A DNA stretch of 31,218 bases, taken from NCBI GenBank assembly GCA_027001815.1, contig JALTLT010000461.1, positions 1 through 31,218 of the forward strand, written 5' to 3'. Below are positions 3-30,967 of this stretch, in pieces; positions within the stretch are counted from its first letter, which is position 1; each line of letters opens with the position of its first letter. This DNA is from Gammaproteobacteria bacterium. Its GTDB lineage: Bacteria; Pseudomonadota; Gammaproteobacteria; JALTLT01. A program made the position numbers and the translations under genes. The notes below the pieces were generated by a model. That model saw only the letters and a list, made by a program, of their open reading frames with translations. It ran no database searches and was not told the origin of the DNA.

Positions 3-767
3 TGCGGCTCGGAGCGGCTGTTCAGCGAGGTGGGGCTCGCCACCCTGGCCATGCTCTACCATCAGGGGGTGCAGACGGTCATTCCGCCCGGCTACCTCTG
101 CTGTGGCTACCCGCAGACCGCCGCCGGCGACCTGCAGAGGGGGAGGCGGATCTCCACCGACAACCGGGTTCTCTTCCACAGGGTGGCCAACACCCTCAAC
201 TACCTGGATCTGCGCACCGTGCTGGTCTCCTGCGGCACCTGCATGGATCAGCTTCTGCAGTACCGGTTCGAGCAGATCTTTCCCGGATGCCGCCTGCTGG
301 ACATTCACGAATATCTCATGGAGCGTGACGTCTCCCTGCCGAAGGTGGAGGGGCGCCGCTACCTCTACCACGACCCCTGCCACACCCCCATGAAACAGCA
401 CGACCCTCTGGAAGTGGCCTCCCGTCTCATGGGCAGCGAGGTAAAGCTCTCCGATCGCTGCTGCGGAGAGGCGGGCACCTTCGCCGTCGCCCGCCCCGAC
501 ATCGCCAGCCAGGTGCGCTTCCGCAAGCGGGAGGAGCTGCTGGGTGGCATGGAGGCGATCCGCCGGGAGGCGGGTGACGGCGTGGAGGTGGGGCTGCTCA
601 CCAGTTGCCCCGCCTGCCAGCAGGGGCTGGCCCGCTACCGGGACGACACCTCCCTCGAACCGGAGTACATCGTGGTCGCCCTGGCGCGGGCGCTGCTCGG
701 CGAGGGGTGGAAGGAGCGTTTCCTGCAGCAGGTCCGCGGGGGGGGGGTGGAGCGGGTGCTGCTATAG
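3..767 (+). CDS. 3' part of an FAD-linked/Fe-S oxidoreductase with CCG (cysteine-rich) domains and a DUF3400-like C-terminus; 5'-truncated by the window edge
   Basis: Frame is open from position 3 (CGSERLFSEVGLATL...). Motifs CCGYP, VSCGTC, YHDPCH, CCGEAG and TSCPAC; ends EYIVVALAR..LGE.W....GGVERVLL, as in the DUF3683/DUF3400 oxidoreductase family. Stop TAG at 765-767. Confidence 0.8.
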   Translation, partial: CGSERLFSEVGLATLAMLYHQGVQTVIPPGYLCCGYPQTAAGDLQRGRRISTDNRVLFHRVANTLNYLDLRTVLVSCGTCMDQLLQYRFEQIFPGCRLLDIHEYLMERDVSLPKVEGRRYLYHDPCHTPMKQHDPLEVASRLMGSEVKLSDRCCGEAGTFAVARPDIASQVRFRKREELLGGMEAIRREAGDGVEVGLLTSCPACQQGLARYRDDTSLEPEYIVVALARALLGEGWKERFLQQVRGGGVERVLL

Positions 768-857
768 CCGTTGAAAAACGCAGTTTTTCGACAGCCTGTG
801 TGCGATGCAGGGAGGCATCGCCATGTTCTAATGATGGTATGTCATTGAACATCCTGA
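764..857 (+). mobile_element. MITE-like element copy 1 (internal-deletion derivative, degenerate left end)
   Basis: ccgttgaaaaacgcagtttttcgacagcctgtg...aatga-N7-tcattgaacatcctg aligns with the first ~85 nt and the right end of the 6449-6609 copy. Left boundary uncertain (764-768). Confidence 0.75.
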
Positions 858-2237
858 TATGGGTATCGCCCGAAGCGCCTTGGGGAGCTCGATAACGAAG
901 TGGGTGGTGCCTTGGGTCGATTCGGCGTGGATCGTGCCCCCGTGCGCCTCGACGATGGACTTGACGATGGCGAGTCCCAGGCCGGTCCCTTCTCCCTGTC
1001 TCGCGCGGTCCACCCGGTAGAAGCGTTCGAAGAGGTGTGTGAGGTGTTCCGGTGGGATCTCCATGCCCTGGTTTGCCACCTCGATACGCACTTTGCCGCC
1101 GTGCTCATCGATGGCCACCTCCACGATGCCGTTTTCACGGGAGTGGCGGATGGCGTTGGATAGCAGGTTGCTCACTGCCCGTCGCAGCATGGTCCGGTGG
1201 CCGGTAAGGCGAGCCGTTCCACGGCGCCCGAGGGTGACACCCTTTTCCTCCGACCACGGCTCATAGTAGTCGAACAGCGCATCCACCTCTTCGGCCAGGT
1301 CCACCTCTTCCAGTTCCGACGGCCTCAGTCCGTTGTCTGCCTTGGCCAGGAACAGCATGTCGTTGATCATCCTCGCAAGGTTTTCGAACTCCTCCATGTT
1401 GGAATAGAGGATTTCCCGGTACTCTTCCGGCGACCGCTCCTGCGACAGCGCCACCTGGGTCTGGGTCATCATGCTGGTGATGGGAGTACGCAGATCGTGT
1501 GCCATGTCGGCGGAGAAATCGGAGAGCCGGCGGAATGCCTCCTCCACCCGCTCGAGCATTTCGTTGAAAGAGTTTGCCAGGTCCCCCAGTTCGTTGGGGA
1601 GGGTCTGCGGATCGAGGCGGAGATCGAGGTCGCTGCCGCTGATGCGCTTCATCTGGGCGATGATCTGATGCAGCGGCGCGTGTCCTTCCCGAACCGCGAA
1701 CCACCCAAGTACTGCGCCGATGCCAGTACCGGTGAGGATCATCCACCACAGAGTGACTCGGAAGTGGGCGAGGAAATGGTCGTGGTAGCCCACCGGCACG
1801 GTGGCAATGGTGGTGTAGGTTTGGCCATTGCCGGAATCGGCGAGGGTGGCTACCAGCACCCGGTAGCGCTCGTCACCATCCGACCAGATCGCGGGGCCGG
1901 GTGATGGCGGCTCGACCAGCGAGTCGATGAGCTTCGAGAAATCGGGATGGTTGCTCGAATAGAGCACGCGGCCCGTGTCGTCCCGCACATGGAGCCATGC
2001 CCCATGGTGTCCCACGAGAAGATCGTCGAAGCGGGGTGCAAGAACACTCACCGCACCTTGCTTGCGAAGCGCGCCCTCCACTGCCTCGATGATACTGCTC
2101 AACTCGGCCTCGTCCTCCTGGGCGAAGTGGAGGCTGATGGAGCGCTCGACCATCCAGCCGAACCCGGTGAAGATGGTCGCCAGCACCAGGCCAAACAGCA
2201 GGGTCAGGCGAACCCTCAGGGAAAGGGGGCTGGTCAT
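828..2237 (-). CDS. copS: Heavy-metal sensor histidine kinase, CusS/CopS family
   Basis: Two TM segments, HAMP region, H-box FSADMAHDLRTP, N-box NLLSNAIRH, G-box GTGLGLAIV. Start placed at ATG 2237 (MTSPLSLRVRL), immediately after the regulator stop. The last ~9 codons lie inside MITE copy 1. Confidence 0.9.
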   Translation of the reverse strand: MTSPLSLRVRLTLLFGLVLATIFTGFGWMVERSISLHFAQEDEAELSSIIEAVEGALRKQGAVSVLAPRFDDLLVGHHGAWLHVRDDTGRVLYSSNHPDFSKLIDSLVEPPSPGPAIWSDGDERYRVLVATLADSGNGQTYTTIATVPVGYHDHFLAHFRVTLWWMILTGTGIGAVLGWFAVREGHAPLHQIIAQMKRISGSDLDLRLDPQTLPNELGDLANSFNEMLERVEEAFRRLSDFSADMAHDLRTPITSMMTQTQVALSQERSPEEYREILYSNMEEFENLARMINDMLFLAKADNGLRPSELEEVDLAEEVDALFDYYEPWSEEKGVTLGRRGTARLTGHRTMLRRAVSNLLSNAIRHSRENGIVEVAIDEHGGKVRIEVANQGMEIPPEHLTHLFERFYRVDRARQGEGTGLGLAIVKSIVEAHGGTIHAESTQGTTHFVIELPKALRAIPISGCSMTYHH

Positions 2238-2238
2238 G

Positions 2239-2928
2239 TCAGGGTGCCGACCCTTCGGGAGCGTCGAGCATGTAGCCCATGCCGCGCACCGTGTGGATGA
2301 GTCGGGGTTCGAAGCCTTCATCCACCTTCACCCGCAGTCGCCGGATGGCGACGTCGATGACGTTGGTATCGCTGTCAAAGTTCATGTCCCAGACCTGGGA
2401 GGCGATCAGTGAACGCGGCAGTACCTCACCCTTGCGCCGCATCAGCAGTTCCAGGAGTGCGAACTCCTTGGCGGTGAGCTTGATCGGCTTTCCGGCGCGG
2501 GTTGCGCGGCGCTTGAGAAGGTCGAGTTCGAGGTCCGCCACCCGCAGTCGGCTGTCGAGGGAGGGTCCGCCCCCGCGCCGGAGGAGAGTGCGAACGCGGG
2601 CGAGCAGCTCGGCGAAGGCGAACGGCTTGACGAGGTAGTCGTCGGCGCCGTGTTCGAGGCCGGTGACGCGGTCTTCCACCGTATCCCGCGCGGTGAGAAA
2701 GAGTACCGGTACGCGGTTGCCTGCCTCCCGCAGAGAGGAGAGGATCTTCAGGCCGTTGATGTCGGGAAGCATGATGTCGAGAATTACCAGGTCGTAGTCG
2801 CCGGTCATGGCGAGATGGTGGCCGTCCAGGCCGTTGCGTGCCAGATCCACCACGAAGCCTGCCTCGGTGAGACCCTGCCTGAGATAGTCCCCGATCTTCT
2901 GTTCGTCTTCCACGATCAGCAGTTTCAT
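2239..2928 (-). CDS. copR: Heavy-metal response regulator, CusR/CopR family (OmpR type)
   Basis: MKLLIVEDE...[10 protein letters not shown]...LTARD...[10 protein letters not shown]...[40 protein letters not shown] precedes ATG 2928. Confidence 0.93.
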
Positions 2929-3035
2929 GCATCGCTCTCCTCGTCGGGAGGTGGTGTGCCGTACCTCCTCACGTTTTGACGACGGCGGCTGTCGGCGTTT
3001 CCCCCCCTGTCGCGCATGAATGATCGGGGGGGGTT

Positions 3036-3064
3036 CATGACGCGATTGTAATCTCCGGGTCATG
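3036..3064. promoter_or_regulatory. CopR/CusR-type binding site (cop box) between divergent copRS and copAB
   Basis: cATGACgcgatTGTAATctccggGTCATg: one mismatch to the TGACA-N4-TGTAAT core, with an outer CATGAC/GTCATG inverted repeat. Position fits the family. Confidence 0.7.
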
Positions 3065-3150
3065 GGTGAGAAAGGTGTCGGTTGCTATCTTCGAGACCAT
3101 ACCGAACCCGGAGCGGGTCCCGGATCGAGATACGCAGGAGGATACCCATC

Positions 3151-4926
3151 ATGAAGAGATCGTATGCCCATGGCATTCAGCCGCCGGATCTGTCGCGCCG
3201 CCGTTTCCTCGGCGGCGTGCTGGCCGGGGGGGCCGCACTGACGCTGCCCCCGCTCTCGTCGCCGGCTCTGGCGGCGCGGGCCGCGGATACCCGGACCGGC
3301 ATGGCGCCGGTGCTGAGCGGTACCGAGTTCCATCTTACCGTGGATCAGACCTGGGTCGATTTCACCGGCACGCCGCGCCCGGCAACGACCATCAACGGCT
3401 CCATTCCGGCGCCTGTCTTGCGCTGGCGGGAGGGGGAAACGGTCACCATCCGGATCACCAATCGGCTGCCGGTCTCCACCTCCATTCACTGGCACGGCAT
3501 TATCCTGCCCTACCGGATGGACGGTGTGCCCGGGGTCAGCTTCCCCGGCATTGCACCCGGTGAGACCTTCGTCTACCGCTTCAAGGTGGGGCAGGCCGGT
3601 ACCTACTGGTATCACTCGCACACCGCCTTCCAGGAGCAGACCGGCATGTATGGTGCGATCATCGTCGAGCCGCGCGGGGGTGAGCGCATCCGTGCCGACC
3701 GGGACTACGTGGTGCAGCTCTCCGACTGGACCGACGAGGATCCGCTGGATGTGTTCGCCAAGCTCAAGAAGCAGAGTGACTATTACAACTTCAATCAGGT
3801 GACGGTGGGAGACTTCTTCCGGGACGTCTCCACCCTCGGCCTTTCGGGTGCCCTGCGCAAGCGCGCCATGTGGAACCGCATGCGCATGAACCCCACCGAC
3901 CTGGCCGACATCTCCGCCTACACCTACACCTACCTCATGAACGGCACGACCCCACGTGGCAACTGGACTGCGCTCTTCCGGACGGGCGACCGGGTCCGGC
4001 TGCGGTTTATCGGAAGCGCGACCCAGAGCTTCTTCGACGTACGGATTCCTGGCCTGAAGATGACGGTCGTGCATGTGGATGGACAGGATATCGAACCGGT
4101 CACCGTCGACGAGTTCCGCATCGGCCCCGGGGAGACCTATGACGTGATCGTCGAGCCCGAAGGAGATACCGCCTATACCATTTTTGCCCAGTCCATGGAT
4201 CGCACCGGGTATGCGCGCGGGACACTCGCCCCAAGGGCGGACATGGAGGCGCCGGTACCCCCACTCGACGAGTCCCAGTGGCTGACCATGCGGGACATGA
4301 TGGGCGCCATGGCGGGCGGGGAGGGCGCGTCGATGAAGGGGATGGCCGGTGCCGGTGGGATGGATCACATGGCGATGGGTTACGGATCCGGGGCGATGAG
4401 CCCGGTACATGCGCGACACGCGAAGACCGAATACGGACCCAGCGTCGACATGCGCGTCGACATGCCGAGGACCAATCTCGACGACCCCGGCATCGGGCTG
4501 CGTGACAACGGCCGTCGGGTGCTCACCTACGCCGACATCCGCACACCTACAGGCCCCCTCGACGCGCGCGAACCGGAGAGAGAGATCGAACTCCATCTCA
4601 CCGGCAACATGGAACGTTACACCTGGTCCCTCGATGGCTTGGAGTTCGGCAAGTCCACACCGATCCACTTCCGGCACGGCGAGCGGCTGCGGGTCATTCT
4701 GCACAACGACACCATGATGACCCATCCGATGCATCTGCACGGGATGTGGAGCGAGCTCGAGGATCCCGAGGGGCGCTTTCTCGCGCGCAGGCACACCATC
4801 AGTGTGCAGCCGGCCCAGCGCATCTCCTTCCGGGTGACGGCGGATGCCCTCGGGCGCTGGGCCTGGCACTGCCATCTCCTCTATCACATGGATGCCGGCA
4901 TGTTTCGTGAAGTGGTCGTGGCCTGA
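3151..4926 (+). CDS. copA: Copper-resistance multicopper oxidase (CopA/PcoA family), Tat-exported
   Basis: Tat motif SRRRFL; copper ligand motifs HWHG, YWYHSH, HPMHLHG, WAWHCHLLYHM; Met-rich insert; AGGAGG RBS before ATG 3151. Confidence 0.95.
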   Translation: MKRSYAHGIQPPDLSRRRFLGGVLAGGAALTLPPLSSPALAARAADTRTGMAPVLSGTEFHLTVDQTWVDFTGTPRPATTINGSIPAPVLRWREGETVTIRITNRLPVSTSIHWHGIILPYRMDGVPGVSFPGIAPGETFVYRFKVGQAGTYWYHSHTAFQEQTGMYGAIIVEPRGGERIRADRDYVVQLSDWTDEDPLDVFAKLKKQSDYYNFNQVTVGDFFRDVSTLGLSGALRKRAMWNRMRMNPTDLADISAYTYTYLMNGTTPRGNWTALFRTGDRVRLRFIGSATQSFFDVRIPGLKMTVVHVDGQDIEPVTVDEFRIGPGETYDVIVEPEGDTAYTIFAQSMDRTGYARGTLAPRADMEAPVPPLDESQWLTMRDMMGAMAGGEGASMKGMAGAGGMDHMAMGYGSGAMSPVHARHAKTEYGPSVDMRVDMPRTNLDDPGIGLRDNGRRVLTYADIRTPTGPLDAREPEREIELHLTGNMERYTWSLDGLEFGKSTPIHFRHGERLRVILHNDTMMTHPMHLHGMWSELEDPEGRFLARRHTISVQPAQRISFRVTADALGRWAWHCHLLYHMDAGMFREVVVA

Positions 4927-4958
4927 GCCACCGCAGCAGAGAGACGGAGAAGAAGACC

Positions 4959-5840
4959 ATGAAAATCACATGCTTCAAGGTGCTTTCGGGAGGGCTCCTG
5001 ATTTTCGGAAGTACCGTGGCCTGGGCCGCCCCGGCAACGGATGGGGCCCCATCACCCATGATGAACGATTCCATACCCATGGCCGAATCCGCGGGGTCCA
5101 TGAAGATGGGGCGAATGCAGGGTGGCTTGCCGCCTCCGGACGCGCGAGACCCTCACGCCTACTCCGACGGATACGACTTCGGAGATGCCGGGCGTCCCCA
5201 CTTTGCCGATGAGCAGCGTTTCGGCTCCCTGCTTGCCAATCGGATGGAGGTCTATGAGCAGGATGGTGCTACCACTGCCGTCTATGACCTCCAGCTCTGG
5301 TACGGCTACGACTATGACCGTCTCGTGGTCAAGGCGGAGGGAGATATCACCGACGGCAAGATCGAGGAGGCCAGTACCGAGCTGCTCTGGTCTCACGCAG
5401 TGGCCTCCTTCTGGGACATGCAGCTTGGTGTGCGCCATGACAGCGGCGAGCTGCCCGATCAGGGCTGGCTGGCGCTCGGGATCCAGGGGTTGGCGCCCTA
5501 CTGGTTCGAGGTCGATACAACTGCCTATTTCGGCGAGGAGAGTCGCACGGCCATCAACGTCGAACTTGAGTATGAACTGCTTTTCACCCAGAAGCTCATC
5601 CTGCAGCCCCGTATCGAGATGAACTGGTACGGAAAGGAAGATCTCGAGCGGGGGATCGGAGAGGGGTTCTCCGATGCAAGCGCCGGCCTGCGGCTCCGCT
5701 ACGAGTTTCGTCGGGAATTTGCCCCATATATCGGAATCGAACGATTCCGGCGCTATGGGAACACCCGGGAGTTGGTGAAGGAATCAGGAGCTGATCCGGA
5801 CGATACGCGGGTAGTGGCGGGAATTCGATTCTGGTTCTGA
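4959..5840 (+). CDS. copB: Outer-membrane copper resistance protein B (CopB/PcoB)
   Basis: Signal peptide, Met-rich N-terminus, PHAYSDG motif, GIQGLAPYWFEVD, LRLRYEFRREFAPYIG, C-terminal GIRFWF; directly downstream of copA. Confidence 0.92.
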   Translation: MKITCFKVLSGGLLIFGSTVAWAAPATDGAPSPMMNDSIPMAESAGSMKMGRMQGGLPPPDARDPHAYSDGYDFGDAGRPHFADEQRFGSLLANRMEVYEQDGATTAVYDLQLWYGYDYDRLVVKAEGDITDGKIEEASTELLWSHAVASFWDMQLGVRHDSGELPDQGWLALGIQGLAPYWFEVDTTAYFGEESRTAINVELEYELLFTQKLILQPRIEMNWYGKEDLERGIGEGFSDASAGLRLRYEFRREFAPYIGIERFRRYGNTRELVKESGADPDDTRVVAGIRFWF

Positions 5841-5894
5841 GAGATTCCGTTTTCTGAACGTTTCAACTGTTGTTTGTCTTGAGGAGGATATTAC

Positions 5895-6401: not shown

Positions 6402-6448
6402 TAAGGATTCCCCCGTTTCCGTGTAAAGCAAACCCAAACGTTGCATAA

Positions 6449-6609
6449 CAGGCTGTTGAAAAACTCCTTTTTCTGCAGCCTGTGCCGCGGTGGAGGGATG
6501 CACCGCCGTTTTCAATGACGAAAGATCATTGAAAACGTGAGGAAGCCGGAAATCGCATTTTCGGCTTCCGGCGTTGAAAAAGGCCAGGACGGCCTTTTTC
6601 AACATCCTG
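6449..6609 (+). mobile_element. MITE-like element copy 2, full length (161 bp)
   Basis: 15-bp terminal inverted repeats caggctgttgaaaaa / tttttcaacatcctg (1 mismatch), flanked by an exact 4-bp direct repeat ATAA (6445-6448, 6610-6613). Internal hairpins; no coding capacity. Confidence 0.85.
6573..6603. terminator. Bidirectional intrinsic-terminator-like hairpin inside MITE copy 2
   Basis: gttgaaaaaggcc-aggac-ggcctttttcaac: perfect 13-bp stem with an A5 tract before and a T5 tract after, between convergent cupredoxin and DUF2905-like genes. Confidence 0.65.
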
Positions 6610-6670
6610 ATAAATTTTCGGTACAGAACCGCTTTGCGCCTTCCTTGGCGTAGACGCGCCGCCACGAATA

Positions 6671-23225: not shown

Positions 23226-23235
23226 TCCGTCTTGG

Positions 23236-23278
23236 CAGGATGTTGAAAAAGGCTAGGACGGCCTTTTTCAACATCCTG
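23236..23278. mobile_element. MITE-like element copy 3, minimal 43-bp form; probably also a bidirectional terminator
   Basis: caggatgttgaaaaaggc-taggacg-gcctttttcaacatcctg: perfect 18-bp stem; flanks TTGG / TTAG; between convergent htpG and GGDEF-EAL genes. Confidence 0.8.
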
Positions 23279-25669
23279 TTAGCCGAGGAGGGAATCCGCT
23301 TCCCCCGGCGAGCCGGCGGGGGGAGGGGAGGGAAACCACCCATCCCGGATCATCCGCTGCAGATGTGACAGGGGCATGGGGCGGGCGAAGTGGAAGCCCT
23401 GGAACCGGTCGCAACCGGCGTCGCGCAGCCGCGCCGCCTGTTGCCGGTTCTCCACCCCCTCGGCAAGGACCGGAATGTCGAGGCTTCGGCCGAGGTCGAT
23501 GATTCCCATGATGAGCTTGTAGTCCTGGGAGTCGGTGAGGATGTTCTGGACGAATTCGCGATCGATCTTGAGTTCGGAGAGAGGGAGCCGGGTGAGGAGA
23601 CTGAGCGAGGAGTAACCGGTTCCGAAATCGTCCAGGGAGATCTCCATGCCCTCGCCGCGCAGCCGGTCGAGCCGCTCCCGTGCGTGTTCCAGGTCGTGGA
23701 TGAAGAGGCTCTCGGTCACCTCGATCACCAGCGTGCGGGTGGGGTGGTGGTAGTTGCGGCAGAGGGCGATCATCGCATCCACGAACCCTTCGTCGCGGAG
23801 CTGGCTGGCGGAGACGTTGAGCGCGATGCGGAAATTTCGGGAGGCCTCTGCGAGAGGGATCAGGGAGGCGGAGTCGACCAGCGCCTTTTCGGTCACCATG
23901 AGGCCGATCTCCCGCATCAGGCCCATGTTCTCGGCGATCGGAATGAACCGGTCGGGGGGGATGTCGCCCAGCGTGTCGTGGTGCCAGCGCACCAGGGCCT
24001 CCGCACCGACGATCTCGCCGCTCCTGGCATCGATCTGGGGCTGATAGACGACGGAGAACTCCCCCCGTTCCAGGGCACCCGCCAGCGCCTGTTCGATCCT
24101 CGTGTCCCCCCCGGTCTGGTCTTCGAGGCGGGGCTGGTAGTGGAAGATGCCTGCATGGAGGCGCTTGGCCTCGTACATCGCCATGTCCGCCCGGCGGAGC
24201 AGCTCTTCGAGCCGCGTGCCGTCGCGGGGTGCCCGGGCGATGCCGATGCTGGCGCGGATGGAGAACTGCATCTCGCCGCACGCGATCGGCGTTCGGAGAG
24301 CGGCCAGAAAGCGTCGGCAGATCGTCTCGAGCTGCTCCTTCGGCACCGCCTCCCAGAGGACGATGAACTCGTCCCCACCCTGGCGGAAGACGCAGTGGTC
24401 GCCGAAATGGTGCTGCAGGCGAACCCCCACCTCGCGCAGGATCGCGTCGCCCACCGAGTGTCCGTGCAGGTCGTTGATCCCCTTGAAGTTGTCCAGGTCG
24501 ATGAAGAGCAGGGAGAAGCCCTGCCTGCGGCTCATGGACCATTCCGGGAAACGGTCGCTCAGGTTGCGGCGGTTCGGCAGGCGGGTCAACTGATCGTGAC
24601 TCGCCAGGTAGGCCAGCTCCGCCTCGTTCCTCCGCTGTTGGCGGATGGCGGCGCGGAAGATCAAATAGAGCAACCCGTTGAAGATCAGCAGCAGCCCGAG
24701 GGTCCAGAGCGCCTGGCGCGAGAAGCGCAGGAGGACTTCGGTGAGCGGCATCGCCGTGAGGGTGTAGTAGCCGTAGAGGCTCGTGTAGCCGATGCAGACC
24801 CGCCCCCAGTTGCCGCGGAAATCGGGGGCATAGAGATGGACCTTGCTTCCCTCCTCCGGACGGCTGGTGATAGAGAGGCCCTGCCGGGCCAGCAGTCGGT
24901 CGTAGATCTCCAGAACCCTCTGGCTGATGGGGGAGGCGTAGTAGGCCTCCATCTCGGGACCCGAGATGTAGGATCCGTACTGTCGGTACATGTCCTCCCG
25001 GATCACCGCGAAACGGATCGGGGCGGGTACCGACTCCTTCGACCAGAGGCTCTCGCCGGCGCCGAGTCTCAGTCCCGTGGTGATGACCGCCACCACCCGC
25101 CCCTCGCCATCGCGCAGGGGGTAGCGCATGGGGATAATCCAGCCGCCGGCCGTCGGCAGATGGTAGGTCCTGCCGATCACCATCCGCTCCGCGTCGAGCG
25201 CCTTCGAGAAGGTGTCCGAGGTGCGTGGGTCGAGGGCCAGGTTGGGGACCCGTGAGCGATCGAGGTTTTGGGTGGTGAGAATCAGGTTGCCCTCGGGATC
25301 TGCCAGCCCGAAGCCCGCGAGCTCGGGGTTGCGCTGCAGAAGACGGTCGATCAGCTCGCGCGCGCGGGGTGAGTCGCGCAGGCCTTCCAGCTCCAGCAGC
25401 CGTTCACCGAGAACCTCCAGCAGCGTCTCGTACTTGCGCATCACCATCTGCAGGGAGTTGATAATCTGGTCGTTGGCGCTGGAGAGTTCCAGTGACACCT
25501 CTTCCTCGATGTTGCGCCACTGCAGGAACAGCACCGCTACTCCCAGGAGCAGCGAGGTGGCACCGACGAAGAAGTAGAGCCGCCACCAGGCGTGGAGTGG
25601 CCGCGCGCTCCTCGTGGAGAGTGAGTGACTCTTCCGTTCACTCGTCTGGGGAGGTGGGAGACTCGCCAT
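23279..25669 (-). CDS. Membrane-bound GGDEF-EAL (diguanylate cyclase/phosphodiesterase) protein with a periplasmic Cache-like sensor
   Basis: Two TM segments flanking a ~270-aa sensor region; SHDQLTRLPNRR, FIDLDNFKGINDLHGH.VGD, GGDEF; EALVRW, DDFGTGYSS, ELKIDR, AEGVE. Start ATG 25669 (or 25690). Confidence 0.9.
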   Translation of the reverse strand: MASLPPPQTSERKSHSLSTRSARPLHAWWRLYFFVGATSLLLGVAVLFLQWRNIEEEVSLELSSANDQIINSLQMVMRKYETLLEVLGERLLELEGLRDSPRARELIDRLLQRNPELAGFGLADPEGNLILTTQNLDRSRVPNLALDPRTSDTFSKALDAERMVIGRTYHLPTAGGWIIPMRYPLRDGEGRVVAVITTGLRLGAGESLWSKESVPAPIRFAVIREDMYRQYGSYISGPEMEAYYASPISQRVLEIYDRLLARQGLSITSRPEEGSKVHLYAPDFRGNWGRVCIGYTSLYGYYTLTAMPLTEVLLRFSRQALWTLGLLLIFNGLLYLIFRAAIRQQRRNEAELAYLASHDQLTRLPNRRNLSDRFPEWSMSRRQGFSLLFIDLDNFKGINDLHGHSVGDAILREVGVRLQHHFGDHCVFRQGGDEFIVLWEAVPKEQLETICRRFLAALRTPIACGEMQFSIRASIGIARAPRDGTRLEELLRRADMAMYEAKRLHAGIFHYQPRLEDQTGGDTRIEQALAGALERGEFSVVYQPQIDARSGEIVGAEALVRWHHDTLGDIPPDRFIPIAENMGLMREIGLMVTEKALVDSASLIPLAEASRNFRIALNVSASQLRDEGFVDAMIALCRNYHHPTRTLVIEVTESLFIHDLEHARERLDRLRGEGMEISLDDFGTGYSSLSLLTRLPLSELKIDREFVQNILTDSQDYKLIMGIIDLGRSLDIPVLAEGVENRQQAARLRDAGCDRFQGFHFARPMPLSHLQRMIRDGWFPSPPPAGSPGEADSLLG

Positions 25670-25759
25670 TCCGTGATCAGGGGGGCGCAACCTGGAGAGG
25701 GAGAAGGTGCCGGTGGCCTCTTGTCCGCCAACGGGGAGGCTGCCCTCCGTCGGCCCTGG

Positions 25760-25920
25760 CAGGCCGTTGAATGGCCCTGTTTTTCGGCGGCTTGGGAGTG
25801 ATGCAGGGGTGCATTGCCGTTTCCAATGAGGTCAGGTCATTGAAAACGCGAGGAAACCGGGAGCCGCGCCTTCGGCTTCCGGCGTTGAAAAAGGCCAGGA
25901 CGGCCTCTTTCAACATCCTG
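25760..25920 (+). mobile_element. MITE-like element copy 4, full length (161 bp)
   Basis: Same length as copy 2 and aligns without gaps (about 125/161 identical by hand count; last ~50 nt nearly identical); flanks CTGG / CCAG. Confidence 0.85.
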
Positions 25921-26067
25921 CCAGACTCCCCGGAAAGCGGTCGAGGTCGCGGTGAACCTCGATCTGGCGATCCTCCCGGGAGGTGTGATTTCGAGACCGG
26001 CGCCGCCACGGGCTTGTCGTCTGAATCCATGGGGAGATTCTAGCGCCTCGCCCCTGCCGGGTTCCAG

Positions 26068-26191
26068 CAGGCTGTTTGTGGCCCAGGGAGGCACCGCCGC
26101 ATTTTCAATGCCGTCGGGGGGAGGAAGCCGGAAACCGCGTTTTCGGGCTCCCCGCGTCGAAAGAGGTCGGGACGGCCTTTTTGCCGTCCCG
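26068..26191 (+). mobile_element. MITE-like element copy 5, degenerate
   Basis: caggctgtt...gcaccgccgcattttcaatg...gaggaagccggaaaccgcgttttcgg...ggacggccttttt...cccg; flanks CCAG / CCGG. Confidence 0.7.
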
Positions 26192-26289
26192 CCGGAAGGG
26201 GAAAGGATCGCCCCCCCGTCGGTCGCGAGGCGGTGCCGGAGAGAGACGTCTCTTTCCGCTCCGCCGTCGTTCCCGGGGACGGACGGAAT

Positions 26290-26319
26290 TTGACGCATGA
26301 CGGGTCCGTGTCCTATCTT
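26290..26319 (+). promoter_or_regulatory. Sigma70 promoter candidate for the lnt-like gene
   Basis: TTGACG-N18-TATCTT, followed by GGAGG (26338-42) and GTG start 26349. Confidence 0.55.
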
Positions 26320-26348
26320 CTCGCCCACGGATTCCACGGAGGAAGGCA

Positions 26349-28478
26349 GTGTTGCCAGGGAAGGGCGATCCAGCGAGTTCCGTTACACCGGCTCCGCGAC
26401 CGCTGCCCGGGTGGGGGGTGCGAGCCGCCTTCTCCCGTCGGCGACCGCCCACCGTCATCCCCTCCCTTGCGATCCACCTGGCCGCACTTCCCGCCTTCCT
26501 CCTGGCCACCCTCTCCTTCCCGCCTCTGCAGCTCTGGCCCGCGGGGCTTGTCGCGCTCGCGCCCCTGATGTGGGCGTTGCCTCGTCTTTCGGCCGGCTGG
26601 GCCCTGGTCAACGGCATGCTCTTCGGCGCATGGACGGGGGGGTACGCCTTCTGGGGCGGGTACGCCTATCATCCCCTCGCCTGGCTCGCGGTGGTCGCCG
26701 CCTGCGGTCTCGTCATGGGGATCGCCGGTTGGGCGTTCCGGCGGCTGGCGACTCTTGGCGGCGGCTGGCTGGCCCCCCTGCCGTGGCTGCTCGCGGAGCA
26801 GCTCCTGCAGGCGCTCGGCGTGCCCTGGAGCTTCGCCCTCATGGTGGGTGGAGAGCCTGCGCTGCTGCAGAGCGCGGCGTTCGGAGGGGCCGGCTGGATC
26901 ACCCTCTCCCTGCTGCTCCTGCAATGGGGGGGTGTGCAGGCGTGGAGGGTGCGGGGTCCCGAGCGGTACCGGCGGTTGTTCCTCGTTCTTCTCGCCCTCG
27001 TCCTGTTGTCGATCGATCCCTCCACGCCTCTCACGGGCGACCCCCTCCGGGTCGCAGTGGTGCAGACCGACATCTCCCGATCCTCTTCCGCCACCGCCGC
27101 CGATTCGGGTCGTCTCGAATCGCTCCTGGAGCAGCGGCGGAGGGGCGTCGAGCGGGCCCTGGCGCAAGAGGGGGGGGAGAGCCCCGAACTGATCGTTCTT
27201 CCCGAACTCTCCTTTCCCGGTTTCGAGTTCGTCGGCGGTGCTCCCCTCGCCGATCTCGCTCGAAGTGGCGGGGTGACCCTGCTGCTCTCTTCCCCCCATC
27301 TGCTGGCCGACGGCCGGCCGGCCAATGCGGTCTTTTCGCTCTCTCCCGACGGCAGGGTGGGCGGCATCCATCTCCAGAGCCGTACCATCCCGATCCTGGA
27401 GAGGGGCTATCTGGCGGGCAGCGAGGTGCGTCCCCTCGATTCCACCCCGGGCAGTCCGGGAACCCTGATCTGTTACGAATCGACCCTCCCCGGGCCGGCG
27501 CGGATGATGACCGCGGCGGGCGCGGGTCTGCTCGTCGTCACCAGCAGTGACGCCTATGCGGGGCCCTCCGTGCTGGCCGCGCTGCATCTGATGATGGATC
27601 GCATCCGTGCCATCGAGAATCGTCGCTATCTGGTGAGGGCTGCCAACGGGGGCCCCAGCGCGGTGATCGATCCGCGGGGCGGGATGGTTGCGCAACTCGG
27701 AGTGTTCGAGGAAGGGGTCCTGCACGCCTCCGTCACCATCCACGAGGAGTTGTCACCCTACAGTCGACACGCTCTCCTTTTCCACATGCTCTGGTGGCTG
27801 GCCGGTCTGACGGCGCTGGCGGTCGCGTTTCTGGGTGGTGGAGCCGTGATCCGCGGGGAGGGATCCGCCACACGCCACGCGCGGGGAGGTGCGGCCGCCG
27901 TCGCCTCCACGGGTGTACTGGCCCTCCTCCCTCTGGTCGTCGCGCTGCAGTGGCAGCACCAGAAGGTGGCGGCCGATTTCCGCCCCGCGGGCAGGGAGGG
28001 AGCGCCCGGGCCTCTCTTTCTCGACCCGTTTCCCGGGGCGGAGGGGTGGCGATTCGAGACGTTTCCGCAGGTCTCCACCCTGCCGGAGGCGGAGGCCGCG
28101 GCGCTGGCCCTGTTGATGCGCCTCTACGGCCGCCCGGTGAGTCCCGCCCGGCTCCTCGAGGAAGGGCACTCGTCGCTGGAAGGGATGGCCAGGCGTCACG
28201 GGCTCTGTGCTAGGCTCCTGGAGAGTCGGCCGACCGGTTCGCAGGGGGGGCGTTCGCCATGGCTGGCCAGGCTCTCCTCCGGCTGGCCGGTGACGGTTCG
28301 CGAGATGGACGAGCGGGCCGTACTGCTCTTCGACCCCCGCCGGCGAGGGTGGGTGATCCTCAGGACGGAGGCCTTCCTCGAGGTGCTGGGCTGGCAGGCG
28401 CTTCGTCTGGTCGCCTGTGGAGAGGGCCGAGATCCCCCGCTCGGCCGATCCTCCCGCCAGCAGCCTGTCGGCCTTTGA
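26349..28478 (+). CDS. lnt: Apolipoprotein N-acyltransferase (Lnt)-like protein fused to a C-terminal, apparently non-catalytic peptidase C39-like domain
   Basis: Multiple N-terminal TMs; VAVVQTDI, IVLPE, LICYES, RAIENRRYLVRAANGGPSAVIDPRG; then two TMs and EAEAAALALLMRLYG...VLLFDP resembling the C39 fold. Divergent paralogue; the symbol marks the family only. Confidence 0.75.
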   Translation: MLPGKGDPASSVTPAPRPLPGWGVRAAFSRRRPPTVIPSLAIHLAALPAFLLATLSFPPLQLWPAGLVALAPLMWALPRLSAGWALVNGMLFGAWTGGYAFWGGYAYHPLAWLAVVAACGLVMGIAGWAFRRLATLGGGWLAPLPWLLAEQLLQALGVPWSFALMVGGEPALLQSAAFGGAGWITLSLLLLQWGGVQAWRVRGPERYRRLFLVLLALVLLSIDPSTPLTGDPLRVAVVQTDISRSSSATAADSGRLESLLEQRRRGVERALAQEGGESPELIVLPELSFPGFEFVGGAPLADLARSGGVTLLLSSPHLLADGRPANAVFSLSPDGRVGGIHLQSRTIPILERGYLAGSEVRPLDSTPGSPGTLICYESTLPGPARMMTAAGAGLLVVTSSDAYAGPSVLAALHLMMDRIRAIENRRYLVRAANGGPSAVIDPRGGMVAQLGVFEEGVLHASVTIHEELSPYSRHALLFHMLWWLAGLTALAVAFLGGGAVIRGEGSATRHARGGAAAVASTGVLALLPLVVALQWQHQKVAADFRPAGREGAPGPLFLDPFPGAEGWRFETFPQVSTLPEAEAAALALLMRLYGRPVSPARLLEEGHSSLEGMARRHGLCARLLESRPTGSQGGRSPWLARLSSGWPVTVREMDERAVLLFDPRRRGWVILRTEAFLEVLGWQALRLVACGEGRDPPLGRSSRQQPVGL

Positions 28479-28568
28479 CAGACCATCGGGTTCTGGTGCT
28501 TTCCGCGGGGCGGAGTGACCTTCAGCCTGAAGTCCGACGGGCTGCTAACAGTTTTCCCCCCTCTTCGG

Positions 28569-28595
28569 TTGACGTCACCGGGGGTTTCGTATATT
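28569..28595 (+). promoter_or_regulatory. Possible sigma70 promoter for the kinase-tad pair
   Basis: TTGACG at 28569-74 and an AT-rich TATATT at 28590-95. The 15-nt spacer is short, so support is weak. Confidence 0.3.
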
Positions 28596-28646
28596 TATTT
28601 CCGGAAACTGCATTTCACTCACGGACAGAGAACAGGGGATCCAGGG

Positions 28647-29618
28647 ATGAGCGATCCAAACCCATGCCTGCCGTTCGACGGCAGAGACCCTTTTCGAACC
28701 ACGCCCCACGCCGAGGTCCGCAGGCTTCCCCTGGCCGAAGAGTTGGTGAGAGAGCCGGTTCCGATCGGTGCCGGCGGCAACTCCAGGCTGTTCCGTCTCG
28801 ACACGTCGGCGGGCGCACTCACCCTCAAGGTCCTGCGGCCCTCCCTGGCGCGCTACGCCCAGCACCGGGCGCGCTTTCTCGAGGAGGCACTCCTCCTGCG
28901 GCGCCTCCGGCGGGTGGAAGGGGTACCCCGTTTCGCGGGCAGTGGGCGTTGGCAGGGTCAGCCGGTCATCGCCTACCAGCATGTGACGGGTGTCTCCCTG
29001 CAGCGATTCATGTCCGCCGCCCCCTCCAGGGGTCTGCCTCCCTTGCTGGCGGTCGAGATGACGGTGGGGCTGCTCAATGTCCTCTGTCAGCTCCACCATC
29101 CGGCTGTGGCCGTGACACACGGGGACATCAGCCTCGAGAACGTTCTTCTCGACCGACAGAGACGAATCTGGCTGATCGACTTCGGGAGCGCCGCGCCGGC
29201 GGACGCCTCGTGCCGCCGGCCCGGTTCCCTGGCCGTCAAGCCGCGCTGTCTCTCTCCGGAGCAGGCGAAAGGGCATCCCTGGGCGGAGGCGAGTGATCTC
29301 TACCAGGTGGGACTGGTGTTCTACCGGCTTCTCACCGGCCGGCATCTCAATCCGGGGCGCGTACCGGCGAGGGCGAGGGTGTTCGCCGCCAATCCGCCCC
29401 CGGTGGACTATCGGGGCGTGCATCCCGCCCTTCGGACCTTTCTGGCCAACCTCCTCGATCCCGACCCACGGAACCGGTGGAGCGCAGCCCCGCAGGCGAG
29501 AGACGTGTTGCAATGGATCCATGCGGAACTGGAGGAGGCGCAGTCGGGCCGGATACAGCGCTGGCGGCCGATCCTTCGAGCCACTCCGCGGCGCATCTTC
29601 AAGGGAGAGGAGAGATGA
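28647..29618 (+). CDS. Hanks-type Ser/Thr protein kinase, soluble
   Basis: IGAGGNS (Gly loop), LTLKVL (Lys), EEALLL (alpha-C Glu), HGDISLENVLL, LIDFGSA, LSPEQ, SDLYQVG; start ATG 28647; no TM segment. Confidence 0.88.
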   Translation: MSDPNPCLPFDGRDPFRTTPHAEVRRLPLAEELVREPVPIGAGGNSRLFRLDTSAGALTLKVLRPSLARYAQHRARFLEEALLLRRLRRVEGVPRFAGSGRWQGQPVIAYQHVTGVSLQRFMSAAPSRGLPPLLAVEMTVGLLNVLCQLHHPAVAVTHGDISLENVLLDRQRRIWLIDFGSAAPADASCRRPGSLAVKPRCLSPEQAKGHPWAEASDLYQVGLVFYRLLTGRHLNPGRVPARARVFAANPPPVDYRGVHPALRTFLANLLDPDPRNRWSAAPQARDVLQWIHAELEEAQSGRIQRWRPILRATPRRIFKGEER

Positions 29619-30892
29619 AAAGGGAAGTGAGGAGGCCGCTCCGCGGCTCCCAGGAAGGACAGGCCCTCGTCCTCGGTCTGGTGCTGCTCATGATCGCTCT
29701 CGCCACGGTGGTGGTGATGTACAACAACACCCAGGTCACCACCGAGAAGGTGAAGGTGGTGAATGCGGCCGACGCGGCGGCCTACAGTGGCGCGGTGTTC
29801 GTGGCCCGAAACCTCAATTTCATGGCCTATACCAATCGTGCCCTGATCGCCAATCACGTCGCGGCCGGACACTACGTCTCCATCTCCTCGTGGGTGCGCT
29901 ACATGAACGAGTCGATGGAGGATCTGGAACAGGTGGGTGACATGGTCTGGTGGATCCCCTATGTGGGGCCCTGGATCGAGCGGATCACCGACATCATGGC
30001 CGAGGTGGCCGAACAGATCGAGGAGGTGGTGGACCTGCTGGGGGGGGATGTACTCCTGCCTCTGGTGGACGGCATGGGAGGCGTGATGTCTCTCGCCCAG
30101 AGCGCGGCGGCGGGGCAGTCCCTCGGTGGTGTCACCGTGGGAGGCTTCTCCATGCCGATCGGCACCCTCATGAGGGAGGTCGCCCAGACCTACGACGACC
30201 GGATCCGGGTCAACGATTCCGGAGATCTTGGGACCACGGAGGCGGCGATCATCGCGGCCCGCATCGCGATGGAGAACGGTCGCATCATGAATGTGGTCGA
30301 ACGTACCGATGCCGCAAGTGACTCCGGGGAGCTGGAGCAGATGGTGGATCTCAGCCTTGGAGGGTCCCGTGCCTGGATCCAGGGGAATCGGGGATGGAGT
30401 CTGGAACCGCCGGTGATCAATCTCGTCTGGTGGCTGGAGAAGAGGGGTTCCACCCGCCATCTGCGAGACGGGTCGAAGCTGGACTGGGACGCCTCCGACG
30501 AACTGGTGCATCACTGGTTCAGTTTCGATCCGAAGGACTGGGGATGGCACGAGGATACCTGGGCGAGGGGTCAGACCCGGGCCAGCGACCTGGCACTCGG
30601 CGGGCGCTACGATCCGATCCCTTCCTACTACCGGACGGCGCGGAGTGAAGGGAGAGGAGCACAGGATACGGTGTTGTCGATCACCGCCTACTGCGTCCTG
30701 CCCATGGATGCCGCGCGCCAGAAGCCGCTGCTGGGCCTCGACTCCGGCGTCGACTCCATCACGCATGCCGCGGTTGCCGAGATCCATTACCAGAGGCCCC
30801 GGGCGGGTTTCGGTGGTGACATGGAGGAGTATGCGAACCTCTACAATCCCTTCTGGGAGGCCAGGCTGGCCAGTGATCTGGTATCCCTCTAG
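29615..30892 (+). CDS. Tad/Flp pilus assembly TadG-related pseudopilin-like protein
   Basis: GQALVLGLVLLMI (prepilin-like G-Q cleavage site and TM), then N.TQVTTEKVKVVNAADAAAYSGA...ARNLNFMAYTNRALIANHV; ATGA overlap with the kinase stop; GGAG RBS. Confidence 0.8.
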   Translation: MKREVRRPLRGSQEGQALVLGLVLLMIALATVVVMYNNTQVTTEKVKVVNAADAAAYSGAVFVARNLNFMAYTNRALIANHVAAGHYVSISSWVRYMNESMEDLEQVGDMVWWIPYVGPWIERITDIMAEVAEQIEEVVDLLGGDVLLPLVDGMGGVMSLAQSAAAGQSLGGVTVGGFSMPIGTLMREVAQTYDDRIRVNDSGDLGTTEAAIIAARIAMENGRIMNVVERTDAASDSGELEQMVDLSLGGSRAWIQGNRGWSLEPPVINLVWWLEKRGSTRHLRDGSKLDWDASDELVHHWFSFDPKDWGWHEDTWARGQTRASDLALGGRYDPIPSYYRTARSEGRGAQDTVLSITAYCVLPMDAARQKPLLGLDSGVDSITHAAVAEIHYQRPRAGFGGDMEEYANLYNPFWEARLASDLVSL

Positions 30893-30967
30893 CAGGATGT
30901 TGAAAACGGCGGAGCAGCCATGCACCGCGGCGCAGGCCGTCGAAAAACGGTGTTTTCCAACAGCCTG
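30893..30967 (-). mobile_element. MITE-like element copy 6 (75-bp internal-deletion derivative, inverted)
   Basis: Reverse complement caggctgttggaaaacaccgtttttcgacggcctgcgccgcggtgcatggctgctccgccgttttcaacatcctg matches the first ~67 nt of copy 2 joined to its right end; flanks CTAG / CCAG. Confidence 0.8.

What the first reader, a model, noticed from the sequence alone, without database searches (positions are those of the whole stretch)
764..30967. Dense family of hairpin-array MITE-like elements: six copies in 31 kb
Six non-coding elements share ends of the form cagg(c/a)(t/c)gttgaaaa ... ttttcaaca(t/g)cctg, with copies 1 and 5 degenerate at one end: 764-857, 6449-6609, 23236-23278, 25760-25920, 26068-26191 and 30893-30967 (inverted). 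Two copies are exactly 161 bp and collinear. Copy 2 has an exact 4-bp target duplication (ATAA); the flanks of copies 3-6 are CTAG/TTAG or one change from them. No transposase is in the window, so these would be non-autonomous and mobilised in trans. A 4-bp CTAG/YTAR target is established for IS5-family elements; assigning these ends to a particular IS family is inference. I do not recognise this as a named repeat.
Basis: partly seen in the sequence, partly recalled or inferred. Interest (0 to 1): 0.75.

Follow-up and report, generated by a model that had tools for sequence, protein, structure and literature searches.

The report
Five-hairpin IS5-type MITE family
The six repeats are real copies of a small gene-less jumping element (a MITE) that borrows the end sequences of IS5-family insertion sequences and fills about 2% of this hydrothermal-vent bacterium's genome; this is an ordinary kind of element, but its folded core is unusually well conserved.

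Summary
All six copies lie at the stated coordinates, give or take 1 nt. The end motif occurs 10 times in the window against 0.12 expected by chance.

In the whole genome (3.07 Mb, 496 contigs, a vent metagenome bin) the family has about 500 loci, 1.8% of the DNA. 158 of them are full-length 162-bp copies with a median 95.7% identity to the consensus.

The element has 15-nt terminal inverted repeats, CAGGCTGTTGAAAAA and TTTTTCAACATCCTG. It makes a 4-bp direct target duplication, NTAR and mostly YTAR. It is almost always intergenic and often sits exactly on a TAA or TAG stop codon. It shows no orientation bias.

Paralogous empty sites carry a single 4-mer where filled sites carry two.

No transposase is present in this assembly. 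Intact 1.26-1.35 kb IS5-family elements (ISAzs10-like, DUF772 plus DDE_Tnp_1) found elsewhere have the same 15-20 terminal bases and CTAG/TTAG duplications.

The interior is not derived from the IS. It is an array of five hairpins whose stems covary across phyla. The invariant loop letters (CAKGGAYG) look like CsrA-binding sites; that is a lead, not a result.

This scan has already met the same family in other genomes.

The parts
764..856 (+). Family A copy 1. A truncated form with hairpins 1-3 joined to the right terminus. The left terminus is degenerate (ATAGCC in place of CAGGCT). It lies between two convergent gene ends. The TAG stop of the upstream gene (765-767) and the last ~10 codons plus the stop of the CusS-like kinase (828-856, minus strand) lie inside it.
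6449..6609 (+). Family A copy 2. Full length at 161 bp, with five hairpins, 94% identical to the genome consensus and 98% to several other copies. Exact 4-bp duplication ATAA at 6445-6448 and 6610-6613.
23236..23278 (.). Family A copy 3. The minimal 43-bp palindromic form, with both termini around hairpin 5. Flanks are TTGG/TTAG. It lies 10 nt after the htpG stop codon.
25760..25920 (+). Family A copy 4. Full length at 161 bp and old, 81% identical to the consensus. Flanks are CTGG/CCAG, which are decayed CTAG. Contigs from three other vent samples also run into it.
26068..26191 (+). Family A copy 5. A degenerate copy: hairpin 1 is mostly lost, hairpins 2, 4 and 5 are recognisable, and the right terminus has decayed.
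30893..30967 (-). Family A copy 6. A 75-bp form with hairpins 1-2 joined to the right terminus. The left flank CTAG contains the TAG stop (30890-30892) of the upstream Tad-like gene. The right flank is CCAG.
28458..28544 (.). A copy of a second, separate MITE family (B), in its short ~87-bp deletion form. Its ends are CAGCCTGTCGG.../...CCGACGGGCTG and its flanks are CCAG/CTAA.

Best explanation
These are copies of a non-autonomous DNA transposon (a MITE), mobilised in trans by the DDE transposase of an ISAzs10-like member of the IS5 family.

The transposase would recognise the 15-20 nt terminal inverted repeats, CAGG(C/A)TGTTGAAAAA. It would insert the element at a 4-bp NTAR site, preferably YTAR, and that site is duplicated on insertion.

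YTAR is disfavoured in all six reading frames of a 66% GC genome and is 7- to 30-fold depleted. This target choice therefore steers insertions into intergenic DNA and onto TAA/TAG stop codons, where they do little harm. That tolerance allowed about 500 copies to accumulate.

The interior is not a deleted IS. It is an unrelated, strongly folded core of five hairpins capped by IS-type ends.

Shown: the ends, the duplication, the copy number, the insertion pattern, the paralogous empty sites, and the existence of ISs with the same ends. Inferred: trans-mobilisation, which transposase does it, and any role of the core.
For: Family size and sharp ends: there are 158 full-length copies among about 500 loci, together 55 kb or 1.8% of the genome. 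Conservation drops from at least 90% to background exactly at the termini.

Target duplication: 55 of 153 copies have identical 4-bp flanks and 45 more differ at one base. Exact duplications make up 52% of the youngest copies and 15% of the oldest. Flank position 1 agrees left and right in 127 of 153 copies (56 expected). Position 4 agrees in 124 of 153 (70 expected). The inverted-repeat model gives no association.

Paralogous empty sites: C305:12310-12471 has TTAA on both sides, while about 50 uninterrupted copies of family C carry a single 4-mer there. C97:316-477 has TTAG on both sides, while C244:4055-4149 has TCAG once.

Insertion pattern: 414 of 496 elements overlap predicted genes by 10% or less in a genome that is 85% coding. 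68 flanks abut a stop codon exactly. Orientation relative to neighbouring genes is unbiased, 35 against 36.

Parent ISs with the same ends: G015, of the same class, has a 1317-bp IS with ends CAGGCTGCTGAAAAA, a CTAG/CTAG duplication and a 202-bit match to NF033581. Massilia cavernae has a 1322-bp IS whose left end matches the MITE's right end at 18 of 18 bases, with DUF772 and DDE_Tnp_1 domains. ISAzs10 is 1307 bp with a TTAG/TTAG duplication. 34 of 80 metagenome loci with 358-aa transposases have such ends 1263-1353 bp apart, 18 of 32 have identical 4-bp flanks, and one left end matches family A at 19 of 20 bases.

Contigs from other vent samples show the element's right end followed by many different YTAR-type flanks, and head-to-tail copies sharing one CTAG.
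Against: No IS5-type transposase was found in this genome. The DDE_Tnp_1, DDE_Tnp_4 and DUF772 searches and a tblastn were all negative. One weak tblastn hit lies antisense to a methyltransferase gene. The assembly is a 95%-complete short-read bin broken into 496 contigs, so a multicopy IS could simply be unassembled, or it could have been lost.

No orthologous empty-site allele was found.

The IS and the MITE share only the terminal 16-20 bp. The link therefore rests on the ends and the target, not on internal homology.

Transposition itself was not observed.
Confidence: 0.88

Rival explanations
1. The element is a MITE, and its conserved five-hairpin core is also a functional RNA module. It would display CsrA/RsmA-type binding sites (GGA in hairpin loops), so that the roughly 500 transcribed copies act as a dispersed CsrA sponge or place neighbouring genes under Csr control. 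This adds to the best explanation rather than replacing it.
For: In an alignment of 22 five-hairpin elements from Gammaproteobacteria, Nitrospiria, 'Deltaproteobacteria', Balneolaceae and a second family in this genome, the stems covary. 85% of cells are paired against 36-47% with slid partners, and 36 pairs show double changes against 15-25.

The invariant letters lie in the loops of hairpin 2 (CA-K-GGA-Y-G) and hairpin 5 (CAGGACG here, CAGGATG in L062). This equals the CsrB repeat CAGGA(U/A/C)G. In the Sedimenticola copies it equals the SELEX consensus RUACARGGAUGU exactly (PMC7652899).

Family C of this genome keeps these hairpins although its termini are different.

csrA is present in G000, G034, G019 and the Nitrospiria genome.
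Against: Copies show no orientation bias relative to flanking genes, 35 against 36 downstream and 27 against 35 upstream, yet the GGA motifs exist on one strand only.

Rfam's Csr/Rsm models do not match: rsmX scores 12 bits at E = 3.3.

The stems are 8-13 bp, longer than typical high-affinity CsrA hairpins (PMC7652899).

No csrA was found in the Balneolaceae genome that carries the element.

No RNA data could be examined. The loop motif also resembles the element's own terminal heptamer CAGGATG, so it could be a DNA-level transposase or host-factor site instead.
Confidence: 0.15
2. REP/REPIN-type elements spread by a RAYT (REP-associated tyrosine/HUH transposase) rather than by a DDE transposase.
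For: The element is a short, hairpin-rich intergenic repeat present in hundreds of copies. Some flanks read GTAG. The genome has one Y1_Tnp (PF01797) gene at C3:7969-8250.
Against: That gene is not flanked by family A, B or C. It sits next to a different, enterobacterial-type GTAG palindrome. Family A has true terminal inverted repeats and a variable 4-bp direct duplication, which HUH elements do not make. Its termini are those of IS5-family ISs.
Confidence: 0.02
3. An IS630/Tc1-mariner-type MITE that inserts into CTAG and duplicates only the central TA, with one extra base belonging to each inverted repeat.
For: The flanks always contain TA, and CTAG is the classical IS630 target. This basis is recalled from general knowledge.
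Against: The outer flank positions 1 and 4 are duplicated directly, as in GTAA/GTAA and ATAA/ATAA. They agree in 127 of 153 and 124 of 153 copies. The inverted relation that this model predicts is at chance, 68 against 63 expected. The ISs carrying these ends encode DUF772 plus DDE_Tnp_1 transposases of the IS5 family.
Confidence: 0.02
4. Not mobile: independently evolved, terminator-like palindromes at gene ends.
For: Many copies lie just after genes, and hairpin 5 has an A-tract, a GC stem and a T-tract.
Against: There are hundreds of copies at 89-99% identity over 162 bp with sharp ends. They have target duplications and paralogous empty sites. They are equally common in divergent (5'/5') spacers, 87 against 86 in convergent spacers. 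The terminator scan does not call hairpin 5 in window 22800-31218.
Confidence: 0.01

Closest known systems
ISAzs10-like insertion sequences of the IS5 family (NCBIfam NF033581, transposase with DUF772 plus DDE_Tnp_1)
   Same: They share the terminal 15-20 nt, of the form CAGG(C/A)(T/C)G(C/T)(T/G)GAAAAA, and the 4-bp CTAG/TTAG/CTAA/TTAA target duplication.
   Different: The ISs are 1.26-1.35 kb and encode a 358-aa transposase. The element here is 162 bp, non-coding, and has no internal similarity to the IS beyond the ends. No such IS is in this assembly.
MITEPsy1 / ISPsy2 of Pseudomonas syringae pv. phaseolicola (PMC3189936)
   Same: It is a roughly 100-nt MITE with IS5-family ends (GGAAGGTCTGAAAAAGCC). 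It duplicates 4 nt at CTAG or YTAA, and it was caught transposing experimentally. The mechanism and target are the same.
   Different: MITEPsy1 has about 6 copies. Here there are about 500, the outer end sequence differs, and the core is a conserved five-hairpin array shared across phyla.
Correia/NEMIS elements of Neisseria and other structured bacterial MITEs (ERIC, RUP, BOX). Basis: recalled general knowledge, not tested here.
   Same: They are 100-160-bp intergenic repeats in hundreds of copies, with inverted-repeat ends and strong RNA/DNA folding. Some have effects on neighbouring transcripts.
   Different: They have different ends and targets (Correia duplicates TA) and no sequence relation. 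No Rfam family matched at gathering score.
CsrB/RsmY/RsmZ-type CsrA-sequestering RNAs (PMC7652899)
   Same: They carry repeated CAGGA(N)G or A(N)GGA motifs presented in hairpin loops. Hairpins 2 and 5 of the element carry exactly such loops, conserved across phyla.
   Different: Those are single-copy regulated sRNA genes with many GGA sites. Here there are two sites on a mobile element, with no covariance-model match, no orientation bias and no expression data.

Membership tests
Prokaryotic MITE | Short, non-coding and multicopy | tested here: met
   162 bp with no ORF. About 500 loci, 158 of them full length.
Prokaryotic MITE | Terminal inverted repeats with sharp family boundaries | tested here: met
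   15-nt TIR with one mismatch. Conservation falls to background outside the ends.
Prokaryotic MITE | Target-site duplication of fixed length | tested here: met
   4 bp. 55 of 153 copies are exact and 45 are one base off. Positions 1 and 4 agree left and right, p<0.0002.
Prokaryotic MITE | Empty sites that lack the element and carry one copy of the target | tested here: met
   Paralogous empty sites exist: C305 against about 50 family C copies, and C97 against C244. Orthologous empty alleles were sought and not found.
IS5 family, ISAzs10-like clade (as non-autonomous derivative) | The same terminal sequence as the autonomous IS | tested here: met
   18 of 18 bases with the Massilia IS, 14 of 15 with the G015 IS, 19 of 20 with metagenome locus L200.
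IS5 family, ISAzs10-like clade (as non-autonomous derivative) | 4-bp YTAR target duplication | tested here: met
   The MITE shows it. So do the ISs: CTAG, TTAG and CTAA in 18 of 32 loci with identical flanks.
IS5 family, ISAzs10-like clade (as non-autonomous derivative) | Cognate DDE transposase present in the same genome | tested here: not met
   PF01609, PF13359 and PF05598 searches and a tblastn were negative in a 95%-complete, 496-contig bin. Absence is not proven.
IS5 family, ISAzs10-like clade (as non-autonomous derivative) | Mobilisation by that transposase | not testable with these tools
   Needs a transposition assay.
REP/REPIN with RAYT | Single-copy RAYT gene flanked by the repeats, with no target duplication | tested here: not met
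   The Y1_Tnp gene on C3 is not flanked by family A, B or C. Family A makes a 4-bp duplication.
IS630/Tc1-mariner-derived MITE | 2-bp TA duplication | tested here: not met
   The outer flank bases are directly duplicated, and the inverted model is at chance.
Csr/Rsm-type CsrA-binding RNA | Several GGA motifs in hairpin loops | tested here: met
   The loops of hairpins 2 and 5 are invariant across 22 elements from several phyla. The motif definition comes from PMC7652899.
Csr/Rsm-type CsrA-binding RNA | Match to a curated Csr/Rsm covariance model | tested here: not met
   rsmX scores 12.4 bits against a gathering score of 56. There was no CsrB, CsrC, RsmY or RsmZ hit.
Csr/Rsm-type CsrA-binding RNA | Transcribed, and bound by CsrA | not testable with these tools
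   No RNA run holds the sequence, and binding needs an experiment.
Intrinsic terminator | GC-rich stem followed by an unpaired T-run | tested here: inconclusive
   The consensus scan of 22800-31218 does not call hairpin 5 of copies 3-6. The T-run is paired with an A-run in the stem. Bidirectional termination is not excluded.

The most novel reading that the evidence does not exclude
The five-hairpin core is not mere filler. It would be a conserved, portable RNA or DNA module that different IS5-type ends have captured repeatedly: family A and family C in this genome share the core but have different termini. Its two invariant loops (CAKGGAYG) would be CsrA/RsmA binding sites. This MITE superfamily would then scatter hundreds of Csr-type sites through genomes of several phyla, acting as a mobile CsrA sponge or a rewiring device.
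Probability: 0.12. Interest if true: 0.8.

Novelty: new member of a known kind. Interest (0 to 1): 0.42.

Why it matters
As a MITE of the IS5 family it is an ordinary kind of selfish repeat, so the finding should not be read as a new mechanism. Four points are still useful.

(1) It explains why this genome bin is shattered into 496 contigs. It also warns annotators that dozens of stop codons and a few C-terminal codons are supplied by the element or its duplication.

(2) It gives a clear case of target choice acting as a safe-site strategy. YTAR is nearly absent from coding DNA at 66% GC, and a sixth of all YTAR sites in the genome now flank this one family.

(3) The same ends with different cores (Nitrospira), and the same core with different ends (family C), show modular exchange between MITE families across phyla.

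(4) The phylum-spanning conservation of the hairpin architecture and of two GGA loops is unexplained. It offers a cheap, testable hypothesis of CsrA binding.

Tried and rejected
- Rfam at gathering score on the whole window, and at E up to 10 on copy 2: nothing meaningful. The best hit was AS-pc01 at 29 bits against a cut-off of 79.
- Transposase searches in the own genome (PF01609, PF13359, PF05598, and tblastn with the Massilia transposase) were negative. The one weak tblastn hit (C132) lies antisense to methyltransferase genes.
- The IS5_4-type gene of G034 (C57) has no recognisable matching ends and is probably a remnant.
It is useful only for the enriched taxa, Sedimenticola and Nitrospira.
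- Reads: only Logan contigs were available, and they break at the repeat. No joint skipping a copy was listed, so no orthologous empty site was seen. The exact empty-site string for copy 2 is absent from JGI metagenome contigs.
- Literature searches for the end sequences and for ISAzs10 found nothing relevant. Searches for MITEs in Nitrospira or in vent symbionts found no description of this family.
- Naming the organism: an exact-protein look-up failed. I can say only Pseudomonadota. Gammaproteobacteria is probable by inference from the relatives that carry the closest copies.
- The RAYT, IS630 and terminator readings were rejected, as set out under rivals.
- My first GC3-based gene caller was too strict, giving 68% coding, and was replaced.


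Full report
**The observation.** Copy 1 ends at 856 rather than 857. A consensus built from the whole genome finds exactly these six in the window. The 14-nt end motif occurs 10 times against 0.12 expected from shuffles. Copies 2 and 4 are 161 bp and collinear. Pfam scans of the window's main ORFs show copper-resistance and housekeeping genes and no transposase.

**The family in its genome.** The window is one whole contig of a 3.07-Mb, 496-contig, 66% GC assembly that is 95% complete. It is held by hydrothermal-vent metagenome runs, and its HtpG groups with Pseudomonadota.

BLAST gives 158 full-length copies among 536 raw loci, which reduce to about 496 elements. Together they cover 55 kb, or 1.8% of the genome. 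127 well-aligned copies are 88.9-99.4% identical to their consensus, with a median of 95.7%. Conservation is at least 90% throughout the 162 bp and collapses exactly at both ends.

The recurrent shorter forms (43, about 75, about 90 and 138-140 bp) are deletions between the repeated TTGAAAA/TTTTCAA words. The window's copies 1, 3 and 6 are such forms.

**Anatomy.** The termini are CAGGCTGTTGAAAAA and TTTTTCAACATCCTG. Between them lie five consecutive hairpins. Either strand folds far better than shuffles as RNA, and the + strand does so as DNA too (z = -9.3 to -9.8).

**Target duplication.** The four bases outside the ends read NTAR, mostly CTAG, CTAA, TTAG or TTAA.
- They are identical left and right in 55 of 153 copies and differ at one base in 45 more.
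- Exact duplications fall from 52% in the least diverged copies to 15% in the most diverged.
- Flank positions 1 and 4 agree left and right in 127 and 124 of 153 copies, against 56 and 70 expected, and 0 of 5000 permutations reach this.
- The relation expected if those bases extended the inverted repeat is at chance.

The duplication is therefore 4 bp, not TA.

**Empty sites.** Joining the two flanks with one 4-mer removed, and searching the genome with the result, gave paralogous empty sites.
- The copy at C305:12310-12471 (TTAA on both sides) sits in the hairpin-3 loop of another repeat family, C. About 50 uninterrupted copies of C continue straight through with a single 4-mer.
- The copy at C97:316-477 (TTAG on both sides) has a 96%-identical unfilled paralogue at C244:4055-4149, with TCAG once.

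Orthologous empty alleles were not found. Logan contigs of four vent runs break at the repeat, and the exact empty-site string of copy 2 is not in JGI metagenome contigs. Those contigs do show the right end followed by dozens of different YTAR-type flanks, and head-to-tail copies sharing one CTAG.

**Where it lands.** I used a simple GC3-based gene caller, which gives 2702 genes and 85% coding. 414 of 496 elements overlap genes by 10% or less. 68 flanks abut a stop codon with zero distance, a sharp spike in the distribution. Window copies 1 and 6 are examples.

Copies occur in convergent, tandem and divergent spacers (86, 192 and 87). They have no orientation bias relative to neighbouring genes, 35 against 36.

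YTAR tetramers are extremely rare in this genome: observed over expected is 0.03 for CTAG, 0.05 for CTAA and TTAG, and 0.15 for TTAA. By contrast GTAG and CTAC are at about 0.7. 195 of the 1169 YTAR sites directly flank a family A end. The rarity follows from codon usage, which is my inference: on both strands YTAR reads as a stop, a rare Leu codon or a T-ending codon. A YTAR-seeking transposase is thereby steered to spacers and stop codons.

**The parent.** No IS5-type transposase is in this assembly. Elsewhere the link is direct.
- An exact scan for the right terminus in species-representative genomes turned up a 1322-bp IS in Massilia cavernae. Its left end equals the MITE's right end at 18 of 18 bases. 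Its frameshifted gene has DUF772 and DDE_Tnp_1 domains and matches NCBIfam IS5 model NF033581.
- G015, a genome of the window's own class, has a 1317-bp IS with ends CAGGCTGCTGAAAAA, a perfect CTAG/CTAG duplication and a 202-bit NF033581 match.
- The nearest named relative is ISAzs10 of Azospirillum sp. B510. It is 1307 bp, with TTAG/TTAG flanks and ends CAGGCCGCGGAAAAAGG.
- Of 80 metagenome loci encoding intact 358-aa relatives, 34 hold both ends of the type CAGGnnGnnGAAAA, 1263-1353 bp apart. 18 of 32 have identical 4-bp flanks, 15 of them CTAG. Several carry GTTGAAAAA-type ends, and one matches family A at 19 of 20 bases.

Beyond 16-20 terminal bases the ISs and the MITE are unrelated. The element is therefore an IS-capped foreign core and not an internally deleted IS. 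MITEPsy1/ISPsy2 is a published, experimentally mobile analogue with the same target (PMC3189936).

**Relatives of the MITE.**
- Related elements occur in 5 of 40 class-level relatives searched.
- Full five-hairpin copies at 77-82% identity occur in Sedimenticola bins. More distant ones occur in other Gammaproteobacteria, a Nitrospiria bin, 'Deltaproteobacteria' bins, a Balneolaceae bin and Microbulbifer, each with YTAR or YTAY duplications.
- Nitrospira genomes carry the same terminus and flanks on a different 122-125-bp fold-back core.
- Conversely, family C of this genome (151 bp, 49 full copies) has different ends (GGAATCTCTGA...) but hairpins 2-4 homologous to family A.

Ends and cores are thus exchanged.

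**The core.** In an alignment of 22 five-hairpin elements, the stems of hairpins 2-5 are kept by compensatory change. 85% of cells are paired, against 36-47% when partners are slid. 36 pairs show double changes against 15-25. The covariation score is 0.265 against at most 0.111. The proposed multiloop-closing helix is not supported (59% paired).

Within the genome, stems vary 3.5-fold less than loops.

The invariant columns lie in two loops. Hairpin 2 reads CA-K-GGA-Y-G. Hairpin 5 reads CAGGACG here and CAGGATG or CATGGAAG elsewhere. Within this genome the variable positions in those loops are the K of hairpin 2 and the base that follows GGA in hairpin 5.

This motif is that of the CsrB repeats, CAGGA(U/A/C)G, in hairpin loops. 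In the Sedimenticola copies it is the SELEX consensus RUACARGGAUGU letter for letter (PMC7652899). csrA is present in this genome and in three other carriers tested, but was not found in the Balneolaceae carrier.

Several points count against a host-level RNA role. There is no orientation bias. No Csr/Rsm covariance model matches. The stems are long. The motif also resembles the element's own terminal heptamer. I treat CsrA binding as a lead at roughly 12-15%.

**Rivals.** A RAYT/REPIN system is excluded. The genome's single Y1_Tnp gene is flanked by a different GTAG palindrome, and family A duplicates its target. IS630-type TA duplication is excluded. Convergent terminators are excluded by copy number, identity, duplications and empty sites, and the terminator scan does not call hairpin 5.

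**Earlier notes of this scan.** The same 162-bp family, and the IS5 reading, were reported before on other genomes (e1-900384, e1-4992939, e1-2401343, e1-4736059). My results agree, and I reached them from this genome's own data.

**Verdict.** This is a real, very abundant, apparently unnamed member of a known kind: an IS5-family MITE. The remaining question worth an experiment is what the conserved five-hairpin core does.

Noticed in passing
window 28458-28544; G000 C146:3545-3966, C353:7668-8089 and many others: A second MITE family, B. The full form is about 422 bp, with common deletion forms of about 196 and about 84 bp. Its ends are CAGCCTGTCGGACTT and its flanks are YTAR-type. About 40 assembled copies of family A carry a B element at one fixed point in the hairpin-3 loop, in both orientations. 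This gives composite elements of 363, 574 and about 250 bp that seem to have spread as units.
   Followed up: partly
G000 C100:5937-6087, C491:1284-1434, C446:4945-5095 (loci L156-L160): A third family, C. It is 151 bp with 49 full copies and five hairpins. Its termini are GGAATCTCTGA.../...TCAGAGTTTCC, but hairpins 2-4 are homologous to family A, with compensatory stem changes. The core is the same and the ends are swapped.
   Followed up: partly
whole genome G000: YTAR tetranucleotides are 7- to 30-fold under-represented (CTAG observed/expected 0.03), while GTAG and CTAC are near 0.7. One sixth of all YTAR sites flank a family A end.
   Followed up: yes
flanks of family A copies genome-wide, e.g. 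window 25756-25759 / 25921-25924: Decayed duplications are asymmetric. The left flank tends to CTGG/CTGA (A to G at -2) and the right flank to CCAG/CCAA (T to C at +2). The changed base is symmetric about the element and extends the terminal pairing with G-C. The cause is unknown; context-dependent repair or selection on a terminal stem are possibilities.
   Followed up: partly
window 828-856 (minus strand) and 765-767: The CusS-like kinase ORF (828-2321, minus strand) runs about 10 codons into copy 1 and stops inside it. The upstream CCG/DUF3400 gene's TAG stop lies in the degenerate left end of the same copy.
   Followed up: partly
window 1000-7000: The cusRS-copAB-cupredoxin stretch between copies 1 and 2 has lower GC (0.575-0.648 per kb) than the rest of the contig (0.64-0.72).
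   Followed up: no
G000 C3:7700-8250 (locus L165): A single Y1_Tnp (RAYT-like) gene is preceded by a GTAG-tagged palindrome that closely resembles enterobacterial REP sequences. It is unrelated to families A-C. The contig could be a separate REP system or contamination of the bin.
   Followed up: partly
L031:319-478 (G010, another family of the class): A mosaic copy. Hairpins 4-5 and the right end are 97% identical to this genome's family A, while hairpins 1-3 are quite different. This suggests recombination between subfamilies, transfer between lineages, or cross-binning.
   Followed up: no
G000 C136:12443-12770, C218:4234-4560; run X4 contig: Head-to-tail tandem copies separated by a single 4-mer (TTAA, CTAA, CTAG). 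This means insertion into the duplicated target of an existing copy.
   Followed up: partly
window 30971-31006: Just beyond copy 6 there is a weak match to the hairpin-2 region of the consensus (36 nt, 81%). It may be the remnant of another copy.
   Followed up: no
G000 C324:10208-10369 and 10590-10745: A full family A copy lies about 220 bp upstream of the genome's csrA gene. With one copy per roughly 6 kb this may well be chance.
   Followed up: no
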